Origin: Escherichia phage FL20
Reading direction: 5' to 3' (one strand)
Length of the DNA stretch: 64,000 bases
Sequence record: PP400781
In this document: positions 23,154 to 53,666 of the stretch, one piece after another
How the letters are laid out: each line of letters opens with the position of its first letter
Position numbering within the stretch: the first letter of the stretch is position 1
Program-made: the position numbers and the translations under genes
Notes under the pieces: generated by a model
What the model was told of the DNA's origin: nothing
The model's database searches: none
Seen by the model: only the letters and a program-made list of their open reading frames with translations

Positions 23154-23789
23154 TCAAGCGAACGTAGAAAGCAAATGTTTTGTTTCTTTCAGTTGTCGTT
23201 CAAGATCTTTGCGTTTCTCTTTAAGTTGCATTTTAGCATTATTTCGCTCTCTTGTAACCTCTTTATCAATGCTCTTATTCCAATTATCAATATCAGAATA
23301 AGTTGGCATACCCAATTCTAAACCTAATGCGGTTGGATACAGGGTAACAGTCCATAAACCGCCAATCTTCTTAAACAGGTCTGGGTGTAATGTACTACCT
23401 ACATCTTCCGGTGTCAACTCTTTTTCTTCTTTCAGTGGTGGGGTCTCGTCATATGGTTCCAGTGCATTTACTTTAATATCAGATACCTCATCAAAGAATC
23501 CGCGTACATCCGCAGGAAATACGCAAGCAATTTCCCAACCGTGATCACGCAGAGAAGTAATATTTTTCACCCCCCCACCATGTGTGATGATTGATGTGAC
23601 ATTGCCATCAAGGTCCACCGAATTTACGAGAAATGGCTTATCGTCTGTCAGATCATTATAAAACTGTGCTTCGGCTGTAGTCATCTCCAGAAACAGATCT
23701 CGGATCGGACGACCATCAGGTGCGTTACCTTCCTTGAGAGTATAAAAACGACTTACGATCCATTTTGGCGGTAAAGCATTAGCAATCAT
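23154..23789 (-). CDS. Hypothetical protein (61.x region)
   Basis: 211-aa ORF immediately upstream of 41; Lys/Glu-rich C-terminal coiled coil. Confidence 0.45.
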   Translation of the reverse strand: MIANALPPKWIVSRFYTLKEGNAPDGRPIRDLFLEMTTAEAQFYNDLTDDKPFLVNSVDLDGNVTSIITHGGGVKNITSLRDHGWEIACVFPADVRGFFDEVSDIKVNALEPYDETPPLKEEKELTPEDVGSTLHPDLFKKIGGLWTVTLYPTALGLELGMPTYSDIDNWNKSIDKEVTRERNNAKMQLKEKRKDLERQLKETKHLLSTFA

Positions 23790-38706: not shown

Positions 38707-40176
38707 CTATTCCCCATTGCCATTATACTTTCTTTGCTTAGTTATCCACACTCTAACCATCTCTACAGATTCGCCGTCAGACGGATCAAGAGTTTTTCCT
38801 TTTTTCTTCATGCGGTACTTAAATCCGTTAAATCTTGCATTCTCTTGCTCGTTAAAGTCGAACATCTTTTTAAATGATTTTCGCCCTTTACGCTCACCAC
38901 ATTCTAGCGGAATCATTCGGTCTGTTATTACATTGGCATTAGGTAGAAACGTTTTTAGATAATCCACCAACGCCCAATCAGGAACATATAGATTAACATT
39001 CTCCTTGCTCTCGTTGTCTCTCAGGTTACAACGCAAACATAATTGAAATGCTGGTTCCAGATAATCAGACACATGACGCGCTTTCAAAAACTCGTTTGTC
39101 GGGAGATCACAACTATTAGCAAGACCTTTTAAAATATCAATCTCCCATCGTTGAGGGTTAAAGCTGAACATCACAGCAACATTTTTATGATGAATGTAAG
39201 AGTTAAGACCATAAGATCCGTAAGGTATCCGCTCACCAATACCATTTGTACACGCTTCTCGGTCCCGATTCACGGTATAAATGAAGTCATCGCCACATTC
39301 ATTTTTAACCATATCAACAAGACGTTCAAAGGTATTGTTTGTTTCTGACTGGTGACGCGACCATCGTTCAGAGTCCGTCATAAGGATGATATTAACTCTA
39401 TCTGTATTTTTATACTCTTTGAAATATAGTCTGGATTCTAGCGCACTCGGAACAAAATCGCAATTTGCATAGTATCGTAGATACTTCCCACTATATGTAT
39501 CAAAGAGATTTGCACATGCTATCGTAACCTTTTTAAAGTCTCCCCACGTACCGTGTTTGTTATCGTTCAAGAAAACAATTTTCGACCCATTCTTCCGGTG
39601 TCCTTCGTTATGTTTTACCATAACGTTGATTTTCTTCTCTAATAACGCCTCATAAAGCCCTCTAAGAGAAGAATCGATCATATCAGTACCATCCTTCGCA
39701 CTTTCTATCTTTTCTTTGATAGCGGCCTTCTCAGAGTCTTTTAGAACTAAGTTCTGTAGGCATTCCGATTCGTCGGCGATTGGTTCGCAATGCTTCGTGA
39801 TAAGTTCAAGATTAGACTTAAACGGATACTCATTAAATTCAACCAGTTGAGGAACTTCATCAATGTAAAGAGCATAATCACCAAACATTTTTGAACGTTC
39901 CATATTAGATAACGCTGTATGTGTAATGAATATCACATCAGCACCGTCTTTAACTGATTGCATTATCGACGCTTGCACTGTCTTAAGGCTTCTTAGTCTT
40001 GTGCTATCAATCAAGACAGCACGACCGCCCATTCTTTTAAACTTATTGTAAGATTGTTCACTTAAAACACGAGATGGCGAAGCAATAACCGCTTTTTCTT
40101 TTGTCTCTAGGACGTGGGAAAGTATAGCATCAGTTTTCCCCGCCGCTGGCAATGCGATTAATGTTTCAATCTTCAT
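38707..40176 (-). CDS. SF2-helicase-like P-loop NTPase of unknown function (not in T4 core set)
   Basis: 489 aa; Walker A ALPAAGKT at residues 9-16, motif Ia-like IASPSRVLSEQ, Ib-like VIFITHTAL, Walker B/DExx-like LYIDEVPQL; C-terminal 350 aa without recognised motifs; start overlaps stop of upstream ORF (TAATG). Confidence 0.55.
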   Translation of the reverse strand: MKIETLIALPAAGKTDAILSHVLETKEKAVIASPSRVLSEQSYNKFKRMGGRAVLIDSTRLRSLKTVQASIMQSVKDGADVIFITHTALSNMERSKMFGDYALYIDEVPQLVEFNEYPFKSNLELITKHCEPIADESECLQNLVLKDSEKAAIKEKIESAKDGTDMIDSSLRGLYEALLEKKINVMVKHNEGHRKNGSKIVFLNDNKHGTWGDFKKVTIACANLFDTYSGKYLRYYANCDFVPSALESRLYFKEYKNTDRVNIILMTDSERWSRHQSETNNTFERLVDMVKNECGDDFIYTVNRDREACTNGIGERIPYGSYGLNSYIHHKNVAVMFSFNPQRWEIDILKGLANSCDLPTNEFLKARHVSDYLEPAFQLCLRCNLRDNESKENVNLYVPDWALVDYLKTFLPNANVITDRMIPLECGERKGRKSFKKMFDFNEQENARFNGFKYRMKKKGKTLDPSDGESVEMVRVWITKQRKYNGNGE

Positions 40177-40463
40177 TAGAAACCCTTACGTCGTGCTTTC
40201 TGGCATTTCTTGATCATTTTATCAGAAATTTCGCGCTTAGGTGCAATCTCTTTCACACCGAAAGCACTAATGCCAAATTCAGAGAGAATATATTCAACCA
40301 ACAATTCACGCACACGCGCTTTACCGATATTCACGCCGTTATTTTTCAGATATGTCTGGCCTTCGACTTGCATCAGATCTAAATCCGCGTCGGTAATATT
40401 GATTTCTTCCATGCGCCCAAATCGAGAATAAACCATGTGTGCGATTGCATTGTGTACTAACAT
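40176..40463 (-). CDS. Hypothetical protein coupled to the P-loop gene
   Basis: About 95 aa from ATG at roughly 40461-40463 with GAGGAA RBS; stop overlaps downstream start. Confidence 0.4.
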   Translation of the reverse strand: MLVHNAIAHMVYSRFGRMEEINITDADLDLMQVEGQTYLKNNGVNIGKARVRELLVEYILSEFGISAFGVKEIAPKREISDKMIKKCQKARRKGF

Positions 40464-40486
40464 AATATATTCCTCACTCAAGAATT

Positions 40487-40643
40487 ACTTAATGATACTT
40501 ACTTTACCAGATCCGTGACAATGAGCGCAACACCCATCACCACGCAATCCTGTTCCGTTACAGTGTTTACACTTCTTCAACGGTAAAGCCATTATAGCAA
40601 ATAAAGCAATAATGAACACCGAAACTAAATTCTCAATAATCAT
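40487..40643 (-). CDS. Micro-protein with TM helix and DnaJ-type double CxxCxGxG zinc finger (52 aa)
   Basis: Not in the ORF track. Translation MIIENLVSVFIIALFAIMALPLKKCKHCNGTGLRGDGCCAHCHGSGKVSIIK read from the minus strand. Confidence 0.4.
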
Positions 40644-40902
40644 AAATCGCCCTCAGTTCTTTATAGCCTCCAATGTGCTCGTTGTCAATGAATATCTGGG
40701 GGTATACAAACCGGAGGCTCTTTGAGTTTAGCCTCCCCGCCAGTTCTTCAATCATATCACGGTCGGGAATAATGTCAACCCCGACCTGCTTGAATACTGG
40801 TTTAAGTGTATACGGAATACCCAGATCATCCAGTAGCTTCATTGCACTAATACAACCATAACAATGATAAGCCTCTTTCGGTATACCGTATATCTCGATC
40901 AT
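40633..40902 (-). CDS. nrdH: Glutaredoxin-like protein (NrdH-like)
   Basis: 89 aa; CYGC redox motif near N-terminus and YPQIFIDNEHIGGYKEL glutaredoxin signature; located next to nrdG as T4 nrdH. Confidence 0.55.
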   Translation of the reverse strand: MIEIYGIPKEAYHCYGCISAMKLLDDLGIPYTLKPVFKQVGVDIIPDRDMIEELAGRLNSKSLRFVYPQIFIDNEHIGGYKELRAIYDY

Positions 40903-41399
40903 TTCTCAGCCTTTAATCTTTCTAGTTCTTCTTCCAGTTCCTTGATCCGTTGGTCACGTTCAAAGTCACGCTGTAACTTAGTGGCGAATACTCGTTTAAA
41001 CTGATTGTAATCATCGATTTTAAACACTTCTTCTTCGCCATAGCGACGCACAGAAACTTCGTAGTTATTGAAGAATTGTTGCATCATTGCTTCGGATGAT
41101 AGCTCTGCTGATACCACTTTAAAATATTGATCTTCTGTAGGCGAAAACCAATTACAAGCATAAAGATAAACCTTTTCATTGTCTGGACACTGGTAAGCCT
41201 TACCATCGATTTCAATCACAGAAACATACTCAGGTATACTAGATGAATCAATAGCTAAGACTTTAAACGCACGGTCCCCGATAAACTCGGAGATCACACG
41301 ATTCGCATCACTGGTTGCAAATGCTTTACGCGCTTGTTCGTTTTTCCACTGATAGGTCATACCAACAACAAACATATTACCAACCTCGCTCTTTACCAA
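40899..41399 (-). CDS. WEVGK-module family protein (1 module plus coiled-coil tail)
   Basis: 166 aa; GMTYQWKNEQARKAF ... FKVLAIDS ... IEIDGKAY module and C-terminal RIKELEEELERLKAEK; paralog of seven neighbouring genes. Confidence 0.5.
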   Translation of the reverse strand: MVKSEVGNMFVVGMTYQWKNEQARKAFATSDANRVISEFIGDRAFKVLAIDSSSIPEYVSVIEIDGKAYQCPDNEKVYLYACNWFSPTEDQYFKVVSAELSSEAMMQQFFNNYEVSVRRYGEEEVFKIDDYNQFKRVFATKLQRDFERDQRIKELEEELERLKAEK

Positions 41400-42201
41400 T
41401 CAAAAATTCAACTTCACGACGTTTAATGTCTTCTTGAAGGTCTTTAATCTTCTGGCGATCTTGCATGATTTCATCCATCTTGTCAAGTGCCGCAATGAAA
41501 TCATCGAAACGTTCAAAGGTTTTACCTTCATTTGCTTCGCCAAATTTAACCATTGTCAGGCCGTAACGACTACTAAACAGACGTTTCAACTGTCCAACGA
41601 TCTTAGAATCAGTGGTTATAACTTCCAATTCTTCTACTTCACGAAAGAATTTTCTATCAGAATCAATAAACCAGCTAGTTCCTTTATGGTCTCTATCTTC
41701 GGTTGCGCTCATTAGAGTATGGTCTTTACCATCAATTTCAATTACATCAATTTGCCCACATGGACGAACATTTTTAACAGTAAAAGGTCTATAATTTATT
41801 GCTCGTGCAATAACATAATTAAGGTTAGATACGTTTTCAGCATAATGGCAGAAGTCGGTCATAGCATTCACATCTTTCCAAGTATAAGTTTTACCAACTT
41901 CCCATTTCTGGGGAACTTCTTCAACTTCACGAAAGAATTTTCTATCAAATGGACTAAAGAAATATGTTGCAGTCCAAATGTCTTTTCCTGTAGCAGTTTT
42001 CGCCGTATGATAAACACCGTCTAGCTCTATTGCATTAATCCAACCGTTACCCTCGATCTCGATGATGGTAAATGGCTTGTCACCAATAGCTGCACTAATA
42101 TCGCTGTTAAGTGGAGAAAGAACACCTTCTCCGTTAGTAATAAACTCAGTTTTAGCGTTTTCATCTTTCCAGGTGTAAGTTTTACCAATTTCCCATTTCA
42201 T
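41377..42201 (-). CDS. WEVGK-module family protein (2 tandem modules plus tail)
   Basis: 274 aa; module 1 starts MKWEIGKTYTWKDENAKTEF, module 2 starts QKWEVGKTYTWKDVNAMTDF; each ends with DRKFFREVEE. Confidence 0.55.
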   Translation of the reverse strand: MKWEIGKTYTWKDENAKTEFITNGEGVLSPLNSDISAAIGDKPFTIIEIEGNGWINAIELDGVYHTAKTATGKDIWTATYFFSPFDRKFFREVEEVPQKWEVGKTYTWKDVNAMTDFCHYAENVSNLNYVIARAINYRPFTVKNVRPCGQIDVIEIDGKDHTLMSATEDRDHKGTSWFIDSDRKFFREVEELEVITTDSKIVGQLKRLFSSRYGLTMVKFGEANEGKTFERFDDFIAALDKMDEIMQDRQKIKDLQEDIKRREVEFLIGKERGW

Positions 42202-42213
42202 AATATATTCCCC

Positions 42214-42714
42214 TTAACCGATTTTATCAAGTTCGTTTAATGCTTTCTCTGCTTCCTGTATAGCTTGCACTCTTTCCGGCATTTTGTCAAGAAAATCTTT
42301 CAACTCTTCAAAACTGGAGATATGACGCAAGGCATTAGCACCGATAGCCGCATGTGATTTGCATTCAAAGCGAATTTTATAATTATCCATCGCCAATTTG
42401 AGAAGGTCTATTAGATCATATTCATGACCAGGCAATAAAACTTCTTTGAAGCACGCTCGGTCGCCATCGGAAAACCATATATTATCACCAACATCGATAG
42501 AACTAATATAATCCCCTTCGTGATTATAGATTGAACGTACATTACCCCAACGGTCTACCGTAGCGACAGTAAATGGTTTATCTAGATATGTAAACACACC
42601 ATCAATATTAGGTTTTTGTTCGTAACGCCAACAATCACGCAAAATGCGCTTTTCGTCCTCACCAACCAACTTATATGTCTTCCCTTCTTCCCATTTCATA
42701 ATATCATCTCTCAT
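42214..42714 (-). CDS. WEVGK-module family protein (1 module plus tail)
   Basis: 166 aa; MKWEEGKTYKL ... DGDRACFKEV; helical tail. Confidence 0.5.
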   Translation of the reverse strand: MRDDIMKWEEGKTYKLVGEDEKRILRDCWRYEQKPNIDGVFTYLDKPFTVATVDRWGNVRSIYNHEGDYISSIDVGDNIWFSDGDRACFKEVLLPGHEYDLIDLLKLAMDNYKIRFECKSHAAIGANALRHISSFEELKDFLDKMPERVQAIQEAEKALNELDKIG

Positions 42715-43240
42715 TTTTGATACGTGATTCTAATTGGATCATACGGTCGCGCGTTTGCTTGTATTCGCGGATAGCACCGATCCGGCTAGGCATACCATCC
42801 AGTACGCTCTTAATACCTTCTATGGTAGTAATTTTGGCAATGCTATTATGTAACCCCATCTTATCGATCAACTGAATGTCGTAGGCTTCCATAAGCAGAC
42901 CCAGACGTTCTAAAGTTAGGTCTTCTTCTTTTTCTTCCGATTCTGGAATCTTAGGTTCAATAGTAACTTCGGTAAAGAAACGACGCTCACCCGACCAAAA
43001 CCACACACCGGAACAGCCAATAGGGGATTCTTTTAACGTCATAGAGTCGAAATTACTACCAATAATAGTAATTTCTCTAACATCACCATCATCGTCAAGG
43101 TCTTCTACCCTAAACGGGCGACCAGCCAACAAGTCAACAATACATCTGTTAATAGACGACGAAAATTTAGTCAGTTCGGCTTTCGACGCTTCGCATTCAA
43201 TCTTGTAAGTTTTACCAACTTCCCATTCCATAATAATCAC
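42704..43240 (-). CDS. WEVGK-module family protein (1 module plus tail)
   Basis: 178 aa; MEWEVGKTYKI ... SGERRFFTEV; helical tail. Confidence 0.5.
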   Translation of the reverse strand: MIIMEWEVGKTYKIECEASKAELTKFSSSINRCIVDLLAGRPFRVEDLDDDGDVREITIIGSNFDSMTLKESPIGCSGVWFWSGERRFFTEVTIEPKIPESEEKEEDLTLERLGLLMEAYDIQLIDKMGLHNSIAKITTIEGIKSVLDGMPSRIGAIREYKQTRDRMIQLESRIKNER

Positions 43241-43241
43241 C

Positions 43242-43745
43242 TCAAATAATTTTCACTGGAATACTATTAACAATCTTGTATTGTACTTGATTGTCAGACC
43301 CCCGCCACGGCTTCTTCGTTGGCATATCTTTAATATAACGCCCATCGATGAACATGTCAACTGATTCTACAATTTTTCTTTGCTCATCATTCAATTGGTC
43401 AAGGGTATAACCAGACCATAGCCAAATATCTTTATTTGGCATCCATGATTTTACTTCATCGATGATCCGCTGTACACCCTTTAAATTGCGTTTATACAAT
43501 GGATCGCCACCTAAGAATGTTAGCCCCTGAATAAAATCAGGTCTAAGCAGATCCAGAATCAATCCCATTGTATCATCGGTGAATGGTTCCCCGTTCTTAG
43601 GATTGAGTAGGCTAGCATTAAAGCAACCATCACATGCGTGTGAACATCCGGTAACGTAAAGGGAGACTCTCACTCCCTCACCGTTCACCATATCACAATC
43701 TTTAATATCGGCATAGCGTAGCTTGCCGTATGTATCAGAACTCAT
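43242..43745 (-). CDS. nrdG: Anaerobic ribonucleotide reductase activating protein NrdG (radical SAM)
   Basis: 167 aa from ATG 43743-43745; DCDMVNGEGVRVSLYVTGCSHACDGCFN matches the NrdG CxxxCxxC-type cluster region; GGDP motif. Confidence 0.85.
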   Translation of the reverse strand: MSSDTYGKLRYADIKDCDMVNGEGVRVSLYVTGCSHACDGCFNASLLNPKNGEPFTDDTMGLILDLLRPDFIQGLTFLGGDPLYKRNLKGVQRIIDEVKSWMPNKDIWLWSGYTLDQLNDEQRKIVESVDMFIDGRYIKDMPTKKPWRGSDNQVQYKIVNSIPVKII

Positions 43746-43887
43746 ATTCAATTACCCCGAACTCGTTTACAATCTGCGCTTTATAGTAACCACCGCGAGA
43801 TGCTAATAGATAAGCTGGGCTTAGGTATTCGTATTCACGGATTTCTACTTGTGCGTTTTCAGTTTCCCAAATCAGTAAAGTCCACAT
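43735..43887 (-). CDS. Hypothetical micro-protein (50 aa)
   Basis: ATG at 43885-43887 with AGGAGAATCAAAT leader; the track extension runs through the promoter. Confidence 0.35.
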   Translation of the reverse strand: MWTLLIWETENAQVEIREYEYLSPAYLLASRGGYYKAQIVNEFGVIEYEF

Positions 43888-43930
43888 ATTTGATTCTCCT
43901 GTAAAGTTGTATCTCGTCTTGATGAATATA

Positions 43931-43958
43931 GTATAGGGGATCGCGAGATCCCCGTCAA
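43931..43958 (-). promoter_or_regulatory. Sigma70-type early promoter with GATC palindromic spacer
   Basis: TTGAC(G)-gggatctcgcgatcccc-TATACT. Confidence 0.5.
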
Positions 43959-43962
43959 GCAT

Positions 43963-44511
43963 TTATTTTAAATTTTTTCGAATGTATTCAGACCATTCCT
44001 TCCCTGTCATTTCGGACCCATTCTGGAAACTGAAATATTCATACGGCATCGAGTCAAGATAAAACAGGATCATACATCGCGCCATATAATACCAATCACG
44101 ATTAAAGTAAACTACGTTATCGCCAGTACCATCAGCACCTTTATCATAACCATCGCGGGTACGGGCGACCCATTGAATAGTATCATTTTTCTCACGGATC
44201 GTAACAGGTTCCCAATATCCAGCACATCCAGCATGACCACACGAACAAGTCAGGAAATATTGACCTTTTGCTTTGTTGTCATCCCATTCACGATGGATTG
44301 GTTCGATCTCGTGAAACAGTGCTAAGCAATCATGATTATGCAACACTGGCTTACCATCAATCAATGCATGGAATGTATACAAACGACCAGTAGACAAATA
44401 GATATCCTCACGCTCAACCAGTTCAATAGCAATCTTTTTAGCTCGTTCTTTGTGTCGTTGTGCTTTACGCTTACGGTTTAATGATTTCATATTCACCTCA
44501 CACATTATCAA
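43963..44511 (-). CDS. Hypothetical protein (Cys/His-containing)
   Basis: 182-aa ORF between nrdD and nrdG; contains CSCGHAGCAGYW. Confidence 0.45.
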   Translation of the reverse strand: MIMCEVNMKSLNRKRKAQRHKERAKKIAIELVEREDIYLSTGRLYTFHALIDGKPVLHNHDCLALFHEIEPIHREWDDNKAKGQYFLTCSCGHAGCAGYWEPVTIREKNDTIQWVARTRDGYDKGADGTGDNVVYFNRDWYYMARCMILFYLDSMPYEYFSFQNGSEMTGKEWSEYIRKNLK

Positions 44512-45053
44512 AGGTCGCGATATAGTACATTATGAAAATGAGAACTTGCATTACCAATATTGTAGATAATAAATTCTTCATCCGGCGCTTGCGCTACAAA
44601 TTGAGTATGAGCAACCGCCACAACCTTAAAAATACGATCCGTGATCTTGTGTTTAATTTCGGCTCCTACTTCCATAGGAACATATTCATGTGTTTCTGTT
44701 TCAGTCGCAAAACAGCCATCTTCTTCATAAGCACGAACAAATCGATCGCAATCAGTACGCTTAACAAATTCAAGAGTATACAATTCTCGTGAATTGTCGG
44801 TATAGACTAATACAGAATTATTCTGATAGCGAATCACATACAGGTTATTATCATCGTCAATTACGCAAAAGCTACGGATTTGTGTTCCTTCGCCTTTACT
44901 CCAGCAGATATTAACCACAGTTCCTCTAATAAAAAAACTTTCCTTTAAATTAAAACTAGCCAATGTGCTAGCGTGCATTTTAACAACAACACCATCGCCA
45001 ATTTCCAGTTTACGAAGTTTAACTTCTTTGTTCAGTACACAAAACATCATCAT
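44508..45053 (-). CDS. Hypothetical protein
   Basis: 181-aa ORF; promoter TTGACA-16-TATAAT at about 45084-45110. Confidence 0.45.
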   Translation of the reverse strand: MMMFCVLNKEVKLRKLEIGDGVVVKMHASTLASFNLKESFFIRGTVVNICWSKGEGTQIRSFCVIDDDNNLYVIRYQNNSVLVYTDNSRELYTLEFVKRTDCDRFVRAYEEDGCFATETETHEYVPMEVGAEIKHKITDRIFKVVAVAHTQFVAQAPDEEFIIYNIGNASSHFHNVLYRDL

Positions 45054-45121
45054 GTTGTCCTCTCGTTGTTTTCGATGTGAGCATTATACATTAGCTAATC
45101 ATGTTGTCAACACCCCAAAAC

Positions 45122-45148
45122 GAAAAAGCCGACCCTTTCGGATCGGCT
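45122..45148 (-). terminator. Rho-independent terminator downstream of nrdD
   Basis: Minus strand: agccgatccgaaagggtcggct hairpin then tttttcg; same hairpin module as at 57735-57762. Confidence 0.55.
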
Positions 45149-45153
45149 GAAAT

Positions 45154-47016
45154 TTACATGTGCTTAACGCGGTTTACCATCTCGGAGTGTTTCCCGTGGT
45201 TAAATGGACGCAGATCAACAGATCCAAGATATCCACTAACGCGACGGATAACATTCATCTTTTCCAGATTGTCATTGCCGCAATCAGGACAAACAAAACC
45301 AGACTCGGTTGCTCTCATTTCCTTAGTAGATCCGCATACATGACATACATCAGAAGGAGTATTAACACCGAAGTAGTGCAATTTATCCATTGCATAGTCT
45401 ACTACAGTTTCAAGACCTTTCAGGTTGTTTTTCATGTCTGGGAACTCAACATAAGAGATCATGCCACCGGACGCCAGCCAGTGATAATCTTTCTCAAAGT
45501 CGATTTTCTCAAATGGAGTGACTTTACGGTCTACGTCAAGGTGGAATGAGTTGGTGTACCAGTCTTTATCGGTAGCACCCTTAACAATACCAAATTTCTC
45601 TCTGTCCAGTCGATTAAATCGATAGCAAAGACTCTCGGCTGGCGTACCGTAAAGACTAAACCCAAGTCCGGTTTCGTCCTTCCATTTTTCAGTATAATGA
45701 CGCAAGATCTTAAGAATATGTTTACCGTATCGCTGCGCATCTTCCGAATCAAACGGATGAACACCAAACAGGACGCTCAATACCTCATGTAAACCAATAT
45801 ATCCAAGAGAGATACTAGCGCGACCATCTTTCAACACTTCCAAAATTTCATCGTTTTGATGAATACGGAAAAACGCACCTTCGGTATACAGCACCGGGGC
45901 AACATTGGCTTTAGCCCCTTTTAAAGCGTCTACGCGACTCATGAGCGCATCAAAGCAAATAGGCATACGATTAGCTAGCTCTTGTTCGAATAGCTCAATT
46001 CTGCGCATTACAGACGCTTTACCAGCACGACGAGCGGCAATAAGGGCAATACGCGGAAGATTCAGAGTCACAACACCTAAGTTATTACGTCCGTCTAATA
46101 CTTCTTCGCCTTTCTCATTATGCCACACACCCAGGAAGCTACGACAACCCATCGGGCTAACCGGAACACTAGATCCAGTGATACTACGGTTATTCTTCGC
46201 AGAGATATAATCAGGGTAAAGACGCTTACTAGAACATTCCAATGCAAGTTGCTTAATGTCGTAGTTCGGATCTTCCGGTTTAAGGTTTAATCCTTCTTCT
46301 AAGAACATCACCAGCTTAGGAAACACCGGAGTGATACCATCTTTACCTAAACCTTTAGTTCGAACGTTCAGGATCGCTTTCTGAATCAGTTTTTCTTCCC
46401 AGCTAGTACCCATACCAAAGGTTAAAGTCACAAAAGGAGTTTGACCGTTGGTGGAGAACAAAGTGTTGATTTCATATTCCAACGCTTGATACCCGTCTAA
46501 CGTTTCTTTTTCTGTCTTCTCTTGTGCATAGAGAGTATCAGCTTTGATTCCGTAGGTTTCGGCATCAGCAAGGTGTTTATGATATGTTTTCTTAACATAC
46601 GGTGCTAACACCTGATCGATGTTTGCAATTGTGGTCCCGCCATATTGATGACTTGCCACCTGTGCGATAATTTGAGCGGTTACAGCACAAGCAACGCCGA
46701 TTGATTTCGGACTTTCGATTTGTGCGCTACCCAATTTAAAACCATTCTCTAGCATGTCTTTAAGATTAACAAGACAGCAGTTAGTAAACGGCATAGCGGG
46801 TGCATAATCCATATCATGATAATGAATATCACCGTCTACATGCGCTTTATAGATGTGCTCAGGTAACACGGTTTTAGCAATCTGTTTAGACACAGCACCA
46901 GCAATCAGATCTCGACGTGTCGGGAATGTTCGCGCGTCTTTGTTCGCGTTCTCTTTGCTTACTTCGTTTTCTTTACCCGTTGCGATCTCTGTAATGTCTT
47001 TGATTAGTTTTTCCAT
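45154..47016 (-). CDS. nrdD: Anaerobic ribonucleoside-triphosphate reductase NrdD (class III, glycyl radical), intron-free
   Basis: 620 aa; long identical blocks with T4 NrdD (FTNCCLV, SHQYGGTT, NGQTPFVT, GSSVPVSPMGCRSFL, GVVTLNLPRIAL, TPAE, LCYRF, glycyl radical motif RRVSGYLG); single continuous ORF. Confidence 0.95.
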   Translation of the reverse strand: MEKLIKDITEIATGKENEVSKENANKDARTFPTRRDLIAGAVSKQIAKTVLPEHIYKAHVDGDIHYHDMDYAPAMPFTNCCLVNLKDMLENGFKLGSAQIESPKSIGVACAVTAQIIAQVASHQYGGTTIANIDQVLAPYVKKTYHKHLADAETYGIKADTLYAQEKTEKETLDGYQALEYEINTLFSTNGQTPFVTLTFGMGTSWEEKLIQKAILNVRTKGLGKDGITPVFPKLVMFLEEGLNLKPEDPNYDIKQLALECSSKRLYPDYISAKNNRSITGSSVPVSPMGCRSFLGVWHNEKGEEVLDGRNNLGVVTLNLPRIALIAARRAGKASVMRRIELFEQELANRMPICFDALMSRVDALKGAKANVAPVLYTEGAFFRIHQNDEILEVLKDGRASISLGYIGLHEVLSVLFGVHPFDSEDAQRYGKHILKILRHYTEKWKDETGLGFSLYGTPAESLCYRFNRLDREKFGIVKGATDKDWYTNSFHLDVDRKVTPFEKIDFEKDYHWLASGGMISYVEFPDMKNNLKGLETVVDYAMDKLHYFGVNTPSDVCHVCGSTKEMRATESGFVCPDCGNDNLEKMNVIRRVSGYLGSVDLRPFNHGKHSEMVNRVKHM

Positions 47017-47032
47017 TGTATCACCTATGAAA

Positions 47033-47052
47033 AAGCGGGATTTCTCCCGCTC
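47033..47052 (-). terminator. Hairpin terminator immediately upstream of the nrdD RBS
   Basis: Minus strand: gcgggagaaatcccgc followed by tttttcat, then AGGTGA RBS. Confidence 0.5.
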
Positions 47053-47060
47053 GTTGATAG

Positions 47061-47555
47061 TTATTTTACCAGTTCTGCTAATTCTTTTTCCGCCGCTTCC
47101 AGTTCAGCTTTCAGTTGTTTGATCTCTTGTCGCTTCTTATTAGCGGCTTCCTGCTTACTATTTCGGATAACCTGATCTAGATACAACTCCCAATCCTGAA
47201 TATTTTTGATAATGTAGCCGTCAACGTTCAGAGCTTTAATATTAAGAACTTCTTCCAGCTTACTTAAAGAACGTTGTGTTTCGGGGAAGAAATAGTCATA
47301 TTCACCTCGGTCAAACCAGTATCTTATGCCAGCTTTATCTAAACGACGATGCAATTCATAAAAATCTTTACCATCTTCGACGATGAGTTTGTCTACATCG
47401 CCATTACAGTTAACAGAGACTTTGAATCTAATATTATCAACCCCACCAAAAACATCAATAAGGATAGTTCCGATCGTGTTATCCGCGCTTCCAGTATCCA
47501 TAAAAGATTCTAGTTTTTCTTGATTAGTAACGTACCAAACATCTTGTTTCCACAT
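47061..47555 (-). CDS. WEVGK-module family protein (divergent module plus coiled-coil tail)
   Basis: 164 aa; C-terminal heptad tail KRQEIKQLKAELEAAEKELAELVK. Confidence 0.45.
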   Translation of the reverse strand: MWKQDVWYVTNQEKLESFMDTGSADNTIGTILIDVFGGVDNIRFKVSVNCNGDVDKLIVEDGKDFYELHRRLDKAGIRYWFDRGEYDYFFPETQRSLSKLEEVLNIKALNVDGYIIKNIQDWELYLDQVIRNSKQEAANKKRQEIKQLKAELEAAEKELAELVK

Positions 47556-47584
47556 AATATAATCCTCTCGTTGTTAAGTGGGAG

Positions 47585-47613
47585 TATTATAGCATACTCC
47601 CTTCGCATGTCAA
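47585..47613 (-). promoter_or_regulatory. Sigma70-type early promoter with dyad spacer
   Basis: TTGACA-tgcgaagggagtatgc-TATAAT; arms gggagtat/atactccc. Confidence 0.55.
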
Positions 47614-48788
47614 GCACTAACTTTTTTCTTTACTGCTTTCACCTTCTGGCGAATTGCTCGAATCTCTTCGATCTCTTTTTCAGTCTCTTTAACAATTTCT
47701 TTGCGATTCTGAATATCTGTATCTAGATTCTCATCGAGTTTAGGCAGCATGTCGATCAAGAACTTTTTAAGATCTTTCAGGTTTCGGATAACAGCACCTT
47801 CACCCATTACCGCCACGCCTACACCATCCGGCAGACCACCAAACAGTTTAACCAGTTCAGACAGATGATCATGATCTTCTAGTGCTTCTTCCGGTTCAGA
47901 TGGCAGTTCAACAAAGTAATAACGTTCATCATTGCTGATCAGGTGATACCAGCAAAGCCCGAAAGATTTCGGTGTATATTCTACACCATCAATTTCAACC
48001 GCGTCAACACTTCCATAATCATCTACTTTAGTTACCTTAAATCCTTGTCCCAGCTTTTGAACAATTTCAACAACATGACTTGATACAGTTTCAGCGGTAA
48101 ACCAATATGGCAAATTATGCTGATTTGGCTTGTAGCGTTCACCTACTTTAAATCTCTGACCAGCCGCTTGCATAGCATGAAATTGTTGTTTCGTGATTTC
48201 CGCGAAGTATTCAAATTCGCCACCATCAAACACACAAGCCCATTGATCACAAAAACGATCTGCCTTAACAGTTTCACCTTTCGCGGTGATCATGGTAGCT
48301 GATCCATGCAATTCTTCTTCAACTAAAAAGCCATATTCGACAAAATCAACAAGTTTCATGGCTTCTTTGTGCTCTGGATCATGCTCTCCCCAGAATCGCT
48401 TAAATTCTTGCAAACCTTCTGGGGTAAACGAATAACATTTACCTTTTTCAAAGTAAGTCGGCATTGCATCCTCTTTCTTGTTCATCGCTTCGTATGCCTC
48501 TTTTGAGATACGTTTAAAGAATTTACGCTCATCGTGCATAATCATAGTAGCCCAATAATAAACGATATCCTCAGCGGAATAAACTACATCTCCAGCTTCA
48601 ATAGTAATAACATGACCGTGGTCATCTTTTTCTAATACTTTAAAGCCCTTTTCTACGATTTCAGCAACCCGAATATGACCACGGCGCGAAGCATCGGTCA
48701 GAATAATTGAATAGCGAGAAAAGTCTAGAAACTCATCTTTACCGCCTTCACGGAATGCATAGTAATGACCTTCAAAGAATTTAGCCAT
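47610..48788 (-). CDS. WEVGK-module family protein (3 tandem modules plus tail)
   Basis: 392 aa; three repeats each with a G(E/K)xY core, an IEAGD/VEIDG box and an ERKFF/ERYYF box; Lys/Glu coiled-coil tail. Confidence 0.5.
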   Translation of the reverse strand: MAKFFEGHYYAFREGGKDEFLDFSRYSIILTDASRRGHIRVAEIVEKGFKVLEKDDHGHVITIEAGDVVYSAEDIVYYWATMIMHDERKFFKRISKEAYEAMNKKEDAMPTYFEKGKCYSFTPEGLQEFKRFWGEHDPEHKEAMKLVDFVEYGFLVEEELHGSATMITAKGETVKADRFCDQWACVFDGGEFEYFAEITKQQFHAMQAAGQRFKVGERYKPNQHNLPYWFTAETVSSHVVEIVQKLGQGFKVTKVDDYGSVDAVEIDGVEYTPKSFGLCWYHLISNDERYYFVELPSEPEEALEDHDHLSELVKLFGGLPDGVGVAVMGEGAVIRNLKDLKKFLIDMLPKLDENLDTDIQNRKEIVKETEKEIEEIRAIRQKVKAVKKKVSA

Positions 48789-48819
48789 AATATAATCCTC
48801 TCGTTGTTTAGACGGGAGT

Positions 48820-48848
48820 ATCTTACTACTCCCGTTTCATCATGTCAA
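48820..48848 (-). promoter_or_regulatory. Sigma70-type early promoter with dyad spacer
   Basis: TTGACA-17-TAAGAT; gggagta/tactccc inverted repeat. Confidence 0.55.
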
Positions 48849-49429
48849 GCGTTAAATGACTTTTGGATCTCTTTCAGTTCAGCTACTTTATCGGCGCTGA
48901 ATTTAGCGTAGGCATCATGTCGAATAATTTCACTTTCAAGAAAGGTTTCCAGCCGAGATCTATTTTCAATAAGGAACTCTTTCAGGTCTTCCGCGTTCTT
49001 GATAAAGATTTTATTGTCGGTAATGTCATCTTCAATCGCAAAGGAGATAGAGCGAACTTTACCAAACAAGTTAATCAGATCTTCCAGAGATTCTTCTTTC
49101 TTAACTGGTTTCATTTCTTCAAACTGCTTTTTAGTGATGCGTTTAAAGTATTTGCGCTCGCTTGCATCAATCATGATTGACGCACCCTCATAATCATGAG
49201 TTTCTACCAAATACACTTTACCCATAACATTAACCGTAAGAACTTTAAAGCCCCTGTGAAGCACACCATACAGGAACTTGTTATGTTGTGGGTAGCGTTT
49301 AACAAATTCCTCTGCGGACTCAGCATTACGGAAAGTGTAATAACGACCTCGTTCAAAAACAGCATCATTTGAAGACTTAGACGGATACAATTTATACGTT
49401 TTCTGTACCATAATATAATCCTCTATCAT
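48845..49429 (-). CDS. WEVGK-module family protein (1 module plus tail)
   Basis: 194 aa (true start possibly the internal ATG about 18 nt in); QKTYKL ... SERKYFKRI ... Confidence 0.45.
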   Translation of the reverse strand: MIEDYIMVQKTYKLYPSKSSNDAVFERGRYYTFRNAESAEEFVKRYPQHNKFLYGVLHRGFKVLTVNVMGKVYLVETHDYEGASIMIDASERKYFKRITKKQFEEMKPVKKEESLEDLINLFGKVRSISFAIEDDITDNKIFIKNAEDLKEFLIENRSRLETFLESEIIRHDAYAKFSADKVAELKEIQKSFNA

Positions 49430-49698
49430 TTCACTAATTGAACAGCACGGAACAGAATGCGCTCACACGGAAGCAGCATAAATTCCCAACGCGGATCAAA
49501 GTCTTTAGCGGTGTATGTTTTCCCATCAACCGAGATTTCACTTACATAACCAACAGGTGACACTTTAAGAACAGTAAACCCATTCTTGATGACTTCGTAG
49601 GTATCTTTCACCCCTTCGTATTCATCATCTAAGAAGTCTTTATGTGCTTGCTCAGATTTAAAAACATAGGCCACACCGGATTTAAACATCTTACGCAT
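49426..49698 (-). CDS. WEVGK-module family protein, short (90 aa)
   Basis: ATG at 49696-49698 with AGGAGAATCAACA leader; KSGVAYVFKSEQAHKDF ... ISVDGKTYTAKDFD. Confidence 0.45.
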   Translation of the reverse strand: MRKMFKSGVAYVFKSEQAHKDFLDDEYEGVKDTYEVIKNGFTVLKVSPVGYVSEISVDGKTYTAKDFDPRWEFMLLPCERILFRAVQLVK

Positions 49699-49730
49699 TG
49701 TTGATTCTCCTTCTTGATTAGATGGGAGTA

Positions 49731-49758
49731 TTTTACTACTCCCATTTCTTATTGTCAA
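49731..49758 (-). promoter_or_regulatory. Sigma70-type early promoter with dyad spacer
   Basis: TTGACA-17-TAAAAT; gggagta/tactccc. Confidence 0.5.
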
Positions 49759-49761
49759 CTA

Positions 49762-50235
49762 CTATCTTAATCTTTGTATAAATTGTTTCTTATACTTCTT
49801 CGTGATCTCTTCTCTTGTATCCGCGTCACAGTAATCGAAACCTTCTGCGTCCATAATAGCAACCATCTCCGCGCGTGTCAAGCGTGAAAATCGTTTTACT
49901 TTATCAACAGCATATTGAGGATGTAAATGATTGTTGGTGTAGTCTCCTTTGATGTAATTAACATAGTTTGTAGCCCAAACAACGAAATCAGCACCTAAAG
50001 CACCAACACCAAACCGTTTAAAGTCTCCGGTCAACGATCCTTCTAGGCGGTTGCAACACGAATGAAGCAATCCCCTTACGCGGCCTTGCCCTTTCCCATC
50101 TAGATCGTGATCGTGGTCAAGATGGTTTTTGCTCATATCCTCAAAAAGTGGCAATTGACAAAGGGGGCAAATGCCCCCCTGTTTTTCGAATAGTTCTTGT
50201 TTGTACTCTTTAGCACTCTTAGCAGTCAGTAACAT
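49762..50235 (-). CDS. 49: Endonuclease VII gp49 (Holliday-junction resolvase)
   Basis: 157 aa from ATG 50233-50235 (same length as T4); CPLCQ zinc motif, HLDHDHDL, RGLLHSCCN, FSRL match T4 EndoVII. Confidence 0.9.
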   Translation of the reverse strand: MLLTAKSAKEYKQELFEKQGGICPLCQLPLFEDMSKNHLDHDHDLDGKGQGRVRGLLHSCCNRLEGSLTGDFKRFGVGALGADFVVWATNYVNYIKGDYTNNHLHPQYAVDKVKRFSRLTRAEMVAIMDAEGFDYCDADTREEITKKYKKQFIQRLR

Positions 50236-50259
50236 AAATTCACCCTCCAAAGAAGGTAT

Positions 50260-50541
50260 TTAACCATTAATCTTGTTTTTGACTACAAAGGATCGGAACT
50301 CATCAAAGCCACCGATATAATCACCATTATAGAAAATCTGCGGCAGGGTGGCAATAACTTCTACCCCTGCGCGATCCTGAATATCGGCAATGATAGAATC
50401 AATCTTTACCGGACGACCGTTTTCGTCCACACCATCATTAACCGGAATGTAGATGTAAGGGATCTTACGCGCTTCACAAAGGCGCTTTGCATTCTGGCAA
50501 TACTTACAGTTGTAACCTTCAAAACCAAAAATTTCTACCAT
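50260..50541 (-). CDS. nrdC: Glutaredoxin/thioredoxin NrdC
   Basis: 93 aa from ATG 50539-50541; CKYCQNAKRL active site as in T4 NrdC; GGFDEF glutaredoxin motif. Confidence 0.8.
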   Translation of the reverse strand: MVEIFGFEGYNCKYCQNAKRLCEARKIPYIYIPVNDGVDENGRPVKIDSIIADIQDRAGVEVIATLPQIFYNGDYIGGFDEFRSFVVKNKING

Positions 50542-50549
50542 ATTATACC

Positions 50550-51362
50550 TCAATCTACGTTAGTTACATAAACTTCTTGCGTATCAGAAGACTTACCACC
50601 TGAACGATCTAGGCAATAGGTCTTATTCAACAGGACGCAGTTTAAATCATTCCGCTTGATAAAGTCAAGGAGATGATCATTTACCTTTCCCTTATGATGT
50701 GTGACATTACTGATACCAAACTGAAAACCACGCGCCATAATCGATTCTACCCACTGATAGAATTTAATCTCTTCCTCGTCACTCCAGAACTTATTGTATT
50801 CCGCAGAAGTGATAAGGTACGGCGGGTCCAAATAAACGAAATCACCTGGCAAGATCTCGATCTCGTCATAACGACCAGACGTAAAACTGATTCGACCGTC
50901 TTTGTTTTCTTCCTTAAAATTCAGGACGCGCTCTACCGCGTTTTCGTTAAAAGTCCGTCGGCCAAAATTAGCATTAAATTCTCCCTTCCTGTTATGGCGG
51001 TTAATGTTGCTAAAACTGTGCTGAATCAGAACAAACAGAGATAGCGGATCTGGATTCTCATTATACTTCTTACGGAATGTCATGTAAGCGTCTTTATCAT
51101 CACGAGACAAACCATTTTCGGCAATAATACGCTTGATCGTAGAAACCGGATCAGGACACTCGTCAATCGCTTTGTACGCGTCAATTAAGCGGTGATCATA
51201 GTCATTAGCCAGCACATCCCCTTCGACGTACAGAGACACGCTCAAGCCGCCACAGAAGGCATCAACAAAGCGGTTATAGTGCTTAGGGAAATACTTACTA
51301 ACACCCGGCAATAACTTTTCCTTATTGCCAGTATAGGGAATTAAACCTAATGCTTTCTTCAT
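50550..51362 (-). CDS. dam: DNA adenine methyltransferase Dam (N6-A, GATC)
   Basis: 270 aa; YTGNK, NRFVDAFCGGLSVSL (SAM binding), DPPYLIT catalytic motif, ADYNKFWS-like block; collinear with T4 Dam. Confidence 0.85.
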   Translation of the reverse strand: MKKALGLIPYTGNKEKLLPGVSKYFPKHYNRFVDAFCGGLSVSLYVEGDVLANDYDHRLIDAYKAIDECPDPVSTIKRIIAENGLSRDDKDAYMTFRKKYNENPDPLSLFVLIQHSFSNINRHNRKGEFNANFGRRTFNENAVERVLNFKEENKDGRISFTSGRYDEIEILPGDFVYLDPPYLITSAEYNKFWSDEEEIKFYQWVESIMARGFQFGISNVTHHKGKVNDHLLDFIKRNDLNCVLLNKTYCLDRSGGKSSDTQEVYVTNVD

Positions 51363-51793: not shown

Positions 51794-51803
51794 TATATAA
51801 TCC

Positions 51804-52100: not shown

Positions 52101-52311
52101 ATTCTAAGAAATATTCTGGAACGATATAACCGTTAAAGTCATTGCACTTATAAAAATGTGGTGCATTTAATGCTGGATGAGCATTAGTAAAGAGTTTACC
52201 CTCTAGAAACAGAATGTAATTAATCGGTCTAATACCGACAGAATCAGGGTCTAAACCTTTTTCTTTCAGTTCAGCCAGCGTTAAAACTCGTCCAGATCTT
52301 AACTTAGCCAT
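52090..52311 (-). CDS. Hypothetical small protein
   Basis: 73-aa ORF. Confidence 0.35.
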   Translation of the reverse strand: MAKLRSGRVLTLAELKEKGLDPDSVGIRPINYILFLEGKLFTNAHPALNAPHFYKCNDFNGYIVPEYFLEFDD

Positions 52312-53658: not shown

Positions 53659-53666
53659 CAACTTTT

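What the first reader, a model, noticed from the sequence alone, without database searches (positions are those of the whole stretch)
40899..49758. Tandem array of eight paralogous genes built from a repeated ~90-aa module, interleaved with nrdG and nrdD
Eight minus-strand genes (40899..41399, 41377..42201, 42214..42714, 42704..43240, 47061..47555, 47610..48788, 48845..49429, 49426..49698) share one module. It begins M-x-WE(V/I/E)GKTY(T/K)WKD and continues through an FxV box and an IEIDG box to a [DS][GED][DE]R.[FY]F.EV box. One gene has two modules (both ending DRKFFREVEE), one has three, and most carry a Lys/Glu-rich coiled-coil tail. Several have their own promoter and the stereotyped leader. 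I do not recognise this family from the T4 core set. Module shuffling plus copy-number expansion in a hyperplastic region is what a diversifying accessory family looks like, for example host takeover or anti-defence, possibly acting as oligomeric decoys or binders.
Basis: seen in the sequence. Interest (0 to 1): 0.85.

Follow-up and report, generated by a model that had tools for sequence, protein, structure and literature searches.

The report
Expanded GoF-family gene array in Krischvirus
Eight early genes flanking the anaerobic ribonucleotide reductase genes of an RB49-like coliphage, plus a ninth elsewhere in the window, are old paralogs of the T4 GoF/Frd.2 protein family, which is already described but has no known wild-type function; here its barrel domain occurs one to three times per protein and is swapped between phage strains.

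Summary
All eight minus-strand genes carry the same ~95-aa module, 11 copies in total. A ninth paralog lies outside the finding at 23154-23789, next to helicase gene 41.

The family is not unknown. A profile built only from this window hits the N-terminal domains of T4 GoF (E 4.6e-12) and Frd.2 (E 2.8e-7). This is the "LSm-like"/SH3-like barrel family described by Kim et al. 2025. RefSeq and PHROGs already label two of the eight genes goF.

The window is a Krischvirus (RB49-like), and the array is present in all 58 sequenced relatives. The "stereotyped leader" is the known PeSL promoter/stem-loop cassette.

I found no description of these features in the papers I could search:
- The size of the expansion: 9 genes and 12 barrels, against 3 single-barrel genes in T4.
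- The two- and three-barrel proteins.
- A C-terminal domain shared by most paralogs.
- Recombination between strains that replaces the barrel-coding part of a gene and leaves its C-terminal domain nearly identical.

The paralogs are old (14-35% identity) and under purifying selection.

Function is inferred, not shown. The most likely role is early host-takeover binders acting on RNA metabolism or gene expression. Most barrels are acidic, which argues against generic RNA binding.

Verdict: a new variant of a known kind, of moderate interest.

The parts
40899..41375 (-). G1: one GoF-type barrel (residues ~1-95 from ATG 41375) plus a C-terminal domain; its stop codon overlaps the nrdH start
   Evidence: phrog_5347 E 1e-60; module E 1e-23
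41377..42201 (-). G2: two tandem barrels (residues 1-97 and 98-195, 50% identical to each other) plus a C-terminal domain
   Evidence: a single-module allele exists in phages E26 and AV108
42214..42699 (-). G3: one barrel plus a C-terminal domain; the RB49 allele has a replaced barrel region and an identical C-terminal domain
42704..43231 (-). G4: one barrel plus a C-terminal domain; starts 10 nt after the nrdG stop codon; this is the protein modelled
   Evidence: (AF2 pLDDT 77.6)
47061..47555 (-). G5: one divergent barrel plus a C-terminal domain; the window carries the minority allele (3 of 58 genomes)
   Evidence: (E 1.1e-7 with a G5-free profile)
47610..48788 (-). G6: three tandem barrels (residues ~1-104, 108-206, 209-304) plus a C-terminal domain; equals RB49p058, labelled 'frd.2/goF'
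   Evidence: phrog_8944 E 2e-211; T4 Frd.2 hits the third barrel, E 2.4e-6
48845..49411 (-). G7: one barrel, the only basic one (pI 9.6), plus a C-terminal domain; equals RB49p059, labelled 'goF'
49426..49698 (-). G8: a barrel only (90 aa), with no C-terminal domain
   Evidence: (phrog_16115)
23154..23789 (-). G9: ninth paralog outside the finding; one barrel plus a C-terminal domain; lies immediately downstream of helicase gene 41
   Evidence: (E 5e-7 with a profile that excluded it)
49724..49758 (-). PeSL cassette upstream of G8: TTGACA, then a 9-bp hairpin that spans the -10 box
   Evidence: -13.8 kcal/mol, z -4.4
48814..48848 (-). PeSL cassette upstream of G6, overlapping the end of G7
   Evidence: -15.2 kcal/mol, z -4.4
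47580..47613 (-). PeSL cassette upstream of G5 (12/12 match to the sigma-70 consensus), overlapping the end of G6
   Evidence: -14.5 kcal/mol, z -4.3; annotated as a promoter in GEC-3S
47030..47051 (-). Terminator-like hairpin plus T-run (AGCGGGA-GAAA-TCCCGCT-TTTT) between G5 and nrdD
   Evidence: sequence; a terminator is annotated at the same place in GEC-3S

Best explanation
These genes are an expanded set of GoF/Frd.2-family proteins in an RB49-like (Krischvirus) T4-type phage.

Architecture: each protein has one to three copies of a ~95-aa SH3-like ('LSm-like') beta-barrel, then a flexible linker. All but G8 also have a small helix/beta-hairpin/helix domain that ends in a long charged helix.

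Expression: the genes appear to be transcribed early. G8-G7, G6 and G5 use sigma-70-type PeSL promoters. G4 to G1 sit inside the nrdG-to-nrdH operon.

Inferred mechanism: the barrel is a ligand-recognition module and the conserved C-terminal domain provides self-association or a common partner. The proteins would then act as mono- to trivalent binders that modulate host or phage gene expression after transcription. This follows the only functional data for the family: GoF mutants rescue T4 growth on rho mutants and stabilise gene 41 mRNA. Because most barrels are acidic, the ligand is more likely a protein of the RNA-decay, termination or transcription machinery than bare RNA.

Origin: the array arose by old duplications into two slots of the conserved nrdH-nrdG-nrdD-49 backbone. 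It is now diversified by recombination that swaps the barrel-coding segments.

Shown here: the family identity, the architecture, the census, the selection regime and the barrel swapping. Inferred: early timing, oligomerisation, the ligand and the biological role.
For: - Family identity: a window-only profile hits T4 GoF residues 4-92 at E 4.6e-12 and Frd.2 residues 2-93 at E 2.8e-7. A broadened profile gives GoF 3e-20, Frd.2 1e-14 and MotB.1 7e-6. PHROGs goF families also match.
- Census: nine genes and 12 barrels, all in this window, with none in the rest of the genome.
- Promoters.
- Barrel swapping: in replaced barrel regions dS is 0.6-1.6, against 0.02-0.09 in the adjacent C-terminal domains of G3 and G7 (0.44-0.49 for G5); omega is 0.2-0.5.
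- Charge: the barrels are acidic (pI 4.5-5.3 in 9 of 12, 5.9 in G6a), as are GoF and Frd.2.
- Literature: GoF(D25Y) stabilises mRNA after transcription while wild-type GoF does not, and GoF and MotB.1 run partly as dimers (PMC12152347). frd.2 was the only T4 gene of unknown function scored as needed for fitness in the CRISPRi-ART screen (PMC11879866).
Against: - No member of this array has been tested.
- Wild-type GoF had no clear effect on RNA in the only direct assay.
- The C-terminal helix did not pass a heptad-periodicity test, and a fold search of the C-terminal domain gave only generic coiled-coil hits.
- Leave-one-out profiles of the C-terminal domain are significant only for G6.
- Early timing rests on promoter consensus alone.
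- The tight embedding of G1-G4 between nrdG and nrdH could point to a different role.
Confidence: 0.55

Rival explanations
1. The proteins are direct RNA chaperones or RNA binders in the LSm/Hfq sense. Each barrel would bind RNA, the multi-barrel proteins would bridge RNAs, and the paralogs would protect or remodel different phage transcripts.
For: - Kim et al. propose an LSm-like fold for the family, and GoF(D25Y) lengthens mRNA half-life.
- G7 has a basic barrel (pI 9.6).
- The GoF suppressor G84R adds a basic residue within the conserved [ED]R-x-[FY]F motif, next to the position where 8 of 12 window modules have R.
Against: - Ten of the 12 barrels are net acidic (net -3 to -9), as are wild-type GoF (-11) and Frd.2 (-15).
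- Wild-type GoF and MotB.1 had little effect on the RNA reporter.
- No Pfam LSM/Hfq match.
- The model has no N-terminal helix and has two helices inserted between the first and second strands.
- AlphaFold3 gave no confident ring oligomers in the paper.
Confidence: 0.2
2. The proteins are anti-defence or host-range factors. The variable barrels would be decoys or inhibitors of variable host immunity proteins, swapped between phages in an arms race, with the multi-barrel proteins acting as polyvalent inhibitors.
For: - Barrel-specific allelic replacement with a conserved C-terminal domain.
- A minority G5 allele in 3 of 58 genomes.
- Module copy-number variation in G2.
- Location in PeSL-rich plastic slots.
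- Acidic, non-enzymatic small early proteins.
- The G4 orthologs span 98% down to 65% identity while the flanking nrdG is about 99% identical.
Against: - Every one of the 58 genomes keeps all eight genes, unlike typical presence/absence accessory anti-defence genes.
- Omega stays below 0.5, with no sign of positive selection.
- No link between the family and any defence system was found in the literature searched.
- The T4 goF and motB.1 knockouts plate normally on laboratory strains.
Confidence: 0.2
3. The proteins are accessory subunits or adaptors of the phage nucleotide-synthesis or replication complexes. Family members sit beside nrdG/nrdH, nrdD, frd (T4 Frd.2), gene 39 (T4 GoF) and gene 41 (G9).
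For: - G4 to G1 are tightly linked within the nrdG-to-nrdH operon: a 10-nt gap after nrdG and an ATGA overlap with nrdH.
- G9 abuts gene 41.
- The T4 members lie next to frd and gene 39.
Against: - In T4 the same backbone (nrdH-55.8-nrdG and nrdD-49) has no family member, so the reductase does not need them.
- The positions coincide with known plastic slots and PeSLs.
- No biochemical link has been reported.
Confidence: 0.05

Closest known systems
T4 GoF (ComC-alpha), 141 aa
   Same: The N-terminal ~90-aa barrel matches the window profile at E 4.6e-12 over its full length and shares the [FW]..G..Y, F.V and FF.EV motifs. It is also an acidic early protein of a T4-type phage with a barrel, linker and C-terminal domain layout.
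   Different: GoF has a single barrel and a short beta-beta-alpha C-terminal domain that shows no sequence similarity to the one here. It lies beside gene 39, not the nrd genes. None of the nine is a one-to-one ortholog; the best single-sequence hit is G1 at E 7e-6.
T4 Frd.2, 128 aa
   Same: Its barrel matches the window profile at E 2.8e-7. As a single sequence it best matches the third barrel of G6, which is why RB49p058 was named frd.2.
   Different: Frd.2 has a single barrel and a different short C-terminal domain, and it lies beside frd. Krischvirus has no family member at the frd locus.
T4 MotB.1, 119 aa
   Same: It is the third member of the published family, recovered at E 7e-6 with the broadened profile.
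   Different: It is only marginal with the window-only profile (E 0.13), and the paper places it on a separate branch.
FeoA / DtxR-IdeR C-terminal SH3-like domains, Tudor and KOW domains
Hfq / LSm proteins
   Same: They have a small five-stranded bent beta-sheet, and the family has a published link to RNA stability.
   Different: There is no Sm motif or Pfam match and no N-terminal helix. Two helices are inserted after the first strand, most barrels are acidic, and there is no evidence of ring assembly.
PeSL cassettes of RB49/phi1 (Arbiol et al. 2010)
   Same: The sigma-70 promoter plus stem-loop units upstream of G8, G6 and G5 have the described composition and occur in an RB49-type genome. 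The paper lists nrdD among the known genes associated with PeSLs.
   Different: PeSLs account for the shared leader and for shuffling of whole genes. They do not account for the breakpoints at the barrel/C-terminal-domain junction inside genes.

Membership tests
GoF/Frd.2/MotB.1 phage 'LSm-like fold' family (Kim et al. 2025) | Sequence-profile similarity to the N-terminal domains of T4 GoF and Frd.2 | tested here: met
   Window-only profile: GoF E 4.6e-12, Frd.2 E 2.8e-7. Broadened profile: 3e-20, 1e-14, and MotB.1 7e-6. PHROGs goF families match G1, G2, G6, G7 and G8.
GoF/Frd.2/MotB.1 phage 'LSm-like fold' family (Kim et al. 2025) | N-terminal bent five-stranded antiparallel beta-sheet of ~85-95 residues | tested here: met
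   The AF2 model of G4 has strands at residues 11-14, 43-48, 54-60, 66-68 and 89-92, with mean pLDDT 77.6. This is a prediction, not a solved structure.
GoF/Frd.2/MotB.1 phage 'LSm-like fold' family (Kim et al. 2025) | Structural neighbours are FeoA-type SH3 domains and Sm-like proteins | tested here: met
GoF/Frd.2/MotB.1 phage 'LSm-like fold' family (Kim et al. 2025) | Barrel joined by a flexible linker to a C-terminal domain of variable type | tested here: met
   The linker at residues 97-105 has pLDDT below 50. At least three C-terminal domain types occur among 76 family representatives.
GoF/Frd.2/MotB.1 phage 'LSm-like fold' family (Kim et al. 2025) | Early gene of a T4-type phage | tested here: inconclusive
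   The host genome is a Krischvirus, family Straboviridae. Sigma-70-type promoters precede G8, G6 and G5. No expression data are available.
GoF/Frd.2/MotB.1 phage 'LSm-like fold' family (Kim et al. 2025) | Effect on mRNA level or stability (known only for the GoF D25Y mutant) | not testable with these tools
   This needs reporter or RNA half-life assays.
LSm/Hfq superfamily | Sm1/Sm2 sequence motifs or an LSM/Hfq profile match | tested here: not met
   None of the eight proteins matches a Pfam LSM or Hfq family at E up to 1.
LSm/Hfq superfamily | N-terminal alpha-helix followed directly by five strands | tested here: not met
   The model starts with a strand, and two helices (residues 17-26 and 29-38) lie between the first and second strands.
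LSm/Hfq superfamily | Hexameric or heptameric ring that binds RNA | not testable with these tools
   Only single chains could be modelled. The paper reports no confident AF3 multimers. Most barrels are acidic.
PeSL regulatory cassette (Arbiol et al. 2010) | Strong sigma-70-like promoter combined with a stem-loop | tested here: met
   TTGACA, a spacer and a -10 box embedded in an 8-9-bp hairpin, found at three sites. Folding energies are -13.8 to -15.2 kcal/mol, z about -4.4.
PeSL regulatory cassette (Arbiol et al. 2010) | Promoter and terminator activity | not testable with these tools
   Activity was measured in the paper for other PeSLs, not for these three.
   The family profile finds nothing in T4 39000-53000, which holds pin, 49.1-49.3, nrdC.x and 55.x.

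The most novel reading that the evidence does not exclude
The GoF barrel is a swappable specificity module. Krischviruses would carry a battery of nine mono- to trivalent binders on a common C-terminal scaffold. Recombination at the barrel/C-terminal-domain junction would exchange barrels between phages to keep pace with variable host targets, such as defence proteins or variants of the Rho, RNase E or RNAP machinery. If so, the decades-old goF phenotype is a side effect of a general phage system for retargeting binders.
Probability: 0.2. Interest if true: 0.75.

Novelty: new variant of a known kind. Interest (0 to 1): 0.48.

Why it matters
goF has been a genetic puzzle since the 1980s, and its family was recognised only in 2025, with no wild-type function assigned. 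A CRISPRi screen found that frd.2 matters for T4 fitness.

This genome offers natural variation that T4 lacks:
- twelve diverged barrels;
- proteins with one, two and three barrels;
- a C-terminal domain shared by most paralogs;
- strain-to-strain barrel swaps with fixed C-terminal domains.

The pattern says the barrel is the specificity element and the C-terminal domain the constant element. That makes partner-finding experiments and chimera tests straightforward to design.

The result also corrects database annotation: six of the eight genes, and the ninth paralog, are labelled only 'hypothetical' in RefSeq.

Tried and rejected
- Pfam: no hit above a curated cut-off for any of the eight proteins.
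- PDB by sequence: no relative with a solved structure; best E 0.069.
- Coiled-coil test: heptad periodicity of the last 35 residues was no better than shuffles for any paralog.
- Leave-one-out profiles of the C-terminal domain: significant only for G6 (8e-5) and borderline for G5 (0.025). Homology of this domain between subgroups therefore rests on the long pairwise and PHROG alignments.
- C-terminal domain profile against T4 GoF and Frd.2: no hit.
- tblastn of a three-barrel metagenomic relative (P0064) found nothing in sequenced phages.
- Long proteins (800-5000 aa) among the profile hits are unrelated repeat proteins that match only positions ~25-60 of the profile. I treated them as spurious.
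- Chance similarity was rejected on the profile E-values.
- Recent tandem amplification was rejected because the modules are 14-35% identical.
- Positive selection as the cause of the divergent alleles was rejected because dS is saturated in the same segments.

Full report
**What the window is.** The 8.9-kb region is 97.5% identical to Escherichia phage kvi and 90-99% identical to 58 phage records, nearly all named as Escherichia, Shigella or Enterobacteria phages of the RB49 type (genus Krischvirus). Fifty-five of them cover at least 80% of it. Krischvirus belongs to Straboviridae but lies outside the subfamily Tevenvirinae that contains T4. The gene order is nrdH, G1-G4, nrdG, three small ORFs, nrdD, G5-G8, gene 49, nrdC and dam, all on the minus strand.

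**Checking the observation.** All eight ORFs exist. Four of the listed starts are upstream alternative codons. The shared ribosome-binding site (GAGG-ATTATATT-ATG) and the RB49 and GEC-3S annotations place the real starts at 41375, 42699, 43231 and 49411, and G8 starts at 49698.
- BLASTP links seven of the eight genes (E 1e-4 to 1e-14). G5 has no significant pairwise hit.
- A profile of ten modules that excluded G5 scores it at E 7e-4.
- A broader profile, from which G5 and every sequence with BLAST E<1 to it were removed, scores it at E 1.1e-7 among 2012 ORF segments, aligned over the whole barrel. G5 is therefore a divergent member.
- G2 has two modules and G6 has three, each individually significant. 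The eight genes hold 11 modules.
- The rest of the genome, taken from phage kvi, holds no further copy.
- The nine genes total about 5.5 kb, roughly 3% of the genome.

**What the module is.** Pfam has nothing. PHROGs places G1-G4 in phrog_5347, G6 and G7 in phrog_8944 ('goF mRNA metabolism modulator'), G8 in phrog_16115 and G5 in phrog_15067, with cross-hits to other goF families. RefSeq labels the RB49 orthologs of G6 and G7 as goF, and the original RB49 annotation named G6 frd.2.
- A profile built only from the 12 modules in this window hits T4 GoF residues 4-92 at E 4.6e-12 and T4 Frd.2 residues 2-93 at E 2.8e-7.
- After enrichment with database relatives, the profile recovers all three published T4 members: GoF 3e-20, Frd.2 1e-14 and MotB.1 7e-6. 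It finds nothing in the T4 region syntenic to this array.
- This is the family described by Kim et al. 2025 (PMC12152347). It consists of early T4 proteins whose N-terminal domain is predicted to be a five-stranded 'LSm-like'/SH3-like barrel joined by a linker to varied C-terminal domains.
- The paper does not mention RB49, Krischvirus, paralogs or duplication, and uses 'tandem' only for its reporter assay. A further literature search found no description of this array.

**Structure.** An AlphaFold2 model of G4 (pLDDT 77.6) has these elements:
- strands at residues 11-14, 43-48, 54-60, 66-68 and 89-92;
- two helices inserted after the first strand;
- a disordered linker at residues 97-105;
- a helix, beta-hairpin, helix unit followed by a long helix at residues 150-177.

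**Family size and architecture elsewhere.** A profile search of 1.84 billion representative proteins found only 95 hits at E<=1e-3. Most are 120-270 aa. A few very long hits are unrelated repeat proteins. Counting near-full-length barrel matches among the 78 representatives that had one, 71 have one barrel, 6 have two and 1 has three; the stretch counts of the original search flag about a dozen two-barrel proteins and a second three-barrel one. At least three types of C-terminal domain are attached to the barrel:
- the short GoF/Frd.2 type;
- the type seen here, which ends in a long charged helix;
- a beta-alpha-beta type.

Multi-barrel proteins are therefore not unique to Krischvirus, but the three-barrel G6 is at the upper extreme.

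**Evolution.** Modules are 14-35% identical to each other. The exception is the pair inside G2 at 50%. They cluster by physical block, G1-G4 against G6-G8. These are old duplications, not a recent amplification.

Orthologs in RB49 and GEC-3S show omega of 0.1-0.45, which indicates purifying selection. The comparison values are 0.02-0.06 for nrdD and 0 for gene 49.

Two genes stand out. G3 of RB49, and G5 of both RB49 and GEC-3S, are only ~67-69% identical to the window's versions, although the flanking genes are ~99% identical. Block-wise identity shows that the divergence is confined to the barrel:
- G3: barrel 20-60% identical, C-terminal domain 100%.
- G5: barrel 40-55%, C-terminal domain 95-100%.
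- G4 against two metagenomic orthologs: barrel 35-55%, C-terminal domain 90-100%.
- G7 and the third barrel of G6 show milder versions of the same pattern.

In the replaced segments dS is also high (0.6-1.6). It is 0.02-0.09 in the adjoining C-terminal domains of G3 and G7 and 0.44-0.49 in that of G5, and omega is 0.2-0.5. The cause is therefore recombinational replacement by old, functional alleles with a breakpoint near the linker, not rapid point mutation.

The window's G5 allele is carried by only 3 of 58 genomes. G2 is a single-barrel gene in phages E26 and AV108.

**Regulatory elements.** G8, G6 and G5 are each preceded by TTGACA, a spacer, and an 8-9-bp hairpin (GGGAGTA...TACTCCC) that spans the -10 box, followed by a near-identical leader and ribosome-binding site. 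The hairpins fold at -13.8 to -15.2 kcal/mol (z about -4.4). These are the PeSL cassettes of Arbiol et al. 2010: sigma-70 promoters plus stem-loops that act as terminators and mediate modular shuffling in RB49 and phi1. That paper names nrdD among the known genes associated with PeSLs.
- G7 has no promoter of its own and follows G8 by 14 nt.
- G4 to G1 sit between nrdG and nrdH with gaps of 1-12 nt; the G4 start lies 10 nt after the nrdG stop, and the G1 stop overlaps the nrdH start.
- A hairpin plus T-run separates G5 from nrdD.
- In T4, nrdD abuts gene 49 and only the small gene 55.8 separates nrdG from nrdH. The two Krischvirus blocks therefore fill two slots of a conserved backbone.

**How it most likely works.** Family identity, architecture and evolutionary pattern are shown. 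Function is inferred. The only functional data are for T4:
- goF point mutants (D25Y, G84R) rescue growth on rho mutants.
- GoF(D25Y) raises gene 41 mRNA by lengthening its half-life, independently of Hfq.
- Wild-type GoF and MotB.1 have little effect in the reporter assay.
- GoF and MotB.1 migrate partly as dimers.
- frd.2 was the only T4 gene of unknown function scored as needed for fitness by CRISPRi-ART.

Nine of the 12 barrels here have pI 4.5-5.3 and G6a has 5.9; these ten carry net charge -3 to -9. GoF (-11) and Frd.2 (-15) are also acidic. Only G7 is basic (pI 9.6) and G8 is neutral. The residues conserved across the family are mainly hydrophobic (Y, F, V, G, F). Between strains it is the barrel that varies and the C-terminal domain that stays fixed.

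Together these points favour a model in which the barrel is a specificity module that binds a macromolecular partner, more probably a protein than bare RNA. The C-terminal domain would supply a constant function such as self-association, and the two- and three-barrel proteins would add valency. Given the goF genetics, the most likely target area is RNA decay, termination or transcription.

I put this at about 0.55 overall. The identity part is near-certain and the mechanism part is weak.

Rival readings:
- Direct LSm-like RNA chaperones (about 0.2).
- Anti-defence or host-range factors (about 0.2).
- Accessory factors of the nucleotide-synthesis or replication complexes (about 0.05).

**Verdict.** The family is already known and partly annotated, and the leader is a known cassette. 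I did not find the following described in the literature I could search:
- the nine-gene, twelve-barrel expansion;
- the multi-barrel proteins in this genus;
- the C-terminal domain shared by most paralogs;
- the barrel-specific allelic exchange.

This makes it a new variant of a known kind, of moderate interest.

Noticed in passing
window 23154-23789 (-): A ninth GoF-family paralog (211 aa, barrel plus C-terminal domain, phrog_16187) lies immediately downstream of helicase gene 41 (23840-25252). Gene 41 is the gene whose mRNA level is changed by the T4 GoF(D25Y) mutant. The adjacency may be coincidence.
   Followed up: partly
window 42214-42699 and 47061-47555, compared with L001 (RB49) and L002 (GEC-3S): The barrel-coding halves of G3 and G5 are replaced between strains (dS 0.9-1.6) while the C-terminal halves remain 95-100% identical in protein sequence. 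This implies recombination breakpoints inside the genes near the linker, which exchange between PeSLs does not explain.
   Followed up: yes
phages E26 (MN655998.1 30947-31480) and AV108 (OR352938.1 109684-110223): The G2 ortholog appears to have a single barrel (~178 aa) in these two Krischviruses, against two barrels in the window. This is module copy-number polymorphism within the genus.
   Followed up: partly
window 5306-5340, 5809-5843, 62329-62363 (all -): Three further PeSL cassettes of the same GGGAGTA/TACTCCC type (GGGGGTA/TACCCCC at 62329) lie upstream of other small ORFs.
   Followed up: no
window 5534-5562, 36480-36510, 43928-43958, 53630-53658, 56157-56184 (all -): A second promoter-hairpin design: a GC-rich hairpin (for example GGGGAT...ATCCCC) sits in the spacer between TTGACA and the -10 box rather than across the -10 box.
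   Followed up: no
window 51362-51793, 53312-53674; kvi L007 6322-6768 and 2485-2817: Sub-threshold matches to the barrel profile (E 0.03-0.3). They could be very divergent SH3-like relatives (MotB.1-like) or noise.
   Followed up: no
window 43735-45053 (-): Three ORFs of unknown function lie between nrdG and nrdD (phrog_4653, phrog_8242, phrog_14838), where T4 has the mobC homing endonuclease. They are preceded by a 12/12 sigma-70 consensus promoter at 45110-45083 and by the strong nrdD terminator at 45148-45127.
   Followed up: partly
window 21652-22206 (-): An ORF that looks like an HNH-type homing endonuclease, judged by eye from its sequence and not checked, lies downstream of the primase-like ORF at 20619-21647.
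   Followed up: no
window 48845-49411 (G7): G7 is the only paralog with a strongly basic barrel (pI 9.6, net +6). It is the best candidate in the set for direct nucleic-acid binding.
   Followed up: no
alignment of T4 GoF with the window modules: The T4 goF suppressor substitution G84R falls inside the conserved [ED]R-x-[FY]F motif. GoF reads E-A-G-F-F where 8 of the 12 window modules have R at the second position and 4 have K or R at the third. The mutation therefore moves GoF towards the consensus of the paralogs.
   Followed up: no
BFVD hits K7QK92 (phage phAPEC8) and A0A494RBB4 (vB_EcoM-Ro121lw): Foldseek matches at E ~3e-5 to proteins from two E. coli phages whose names do not suggest T4-type phages; their taxonomy was not checked. 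The fold family may extend beyond Straboviridae.
   Followed up: no
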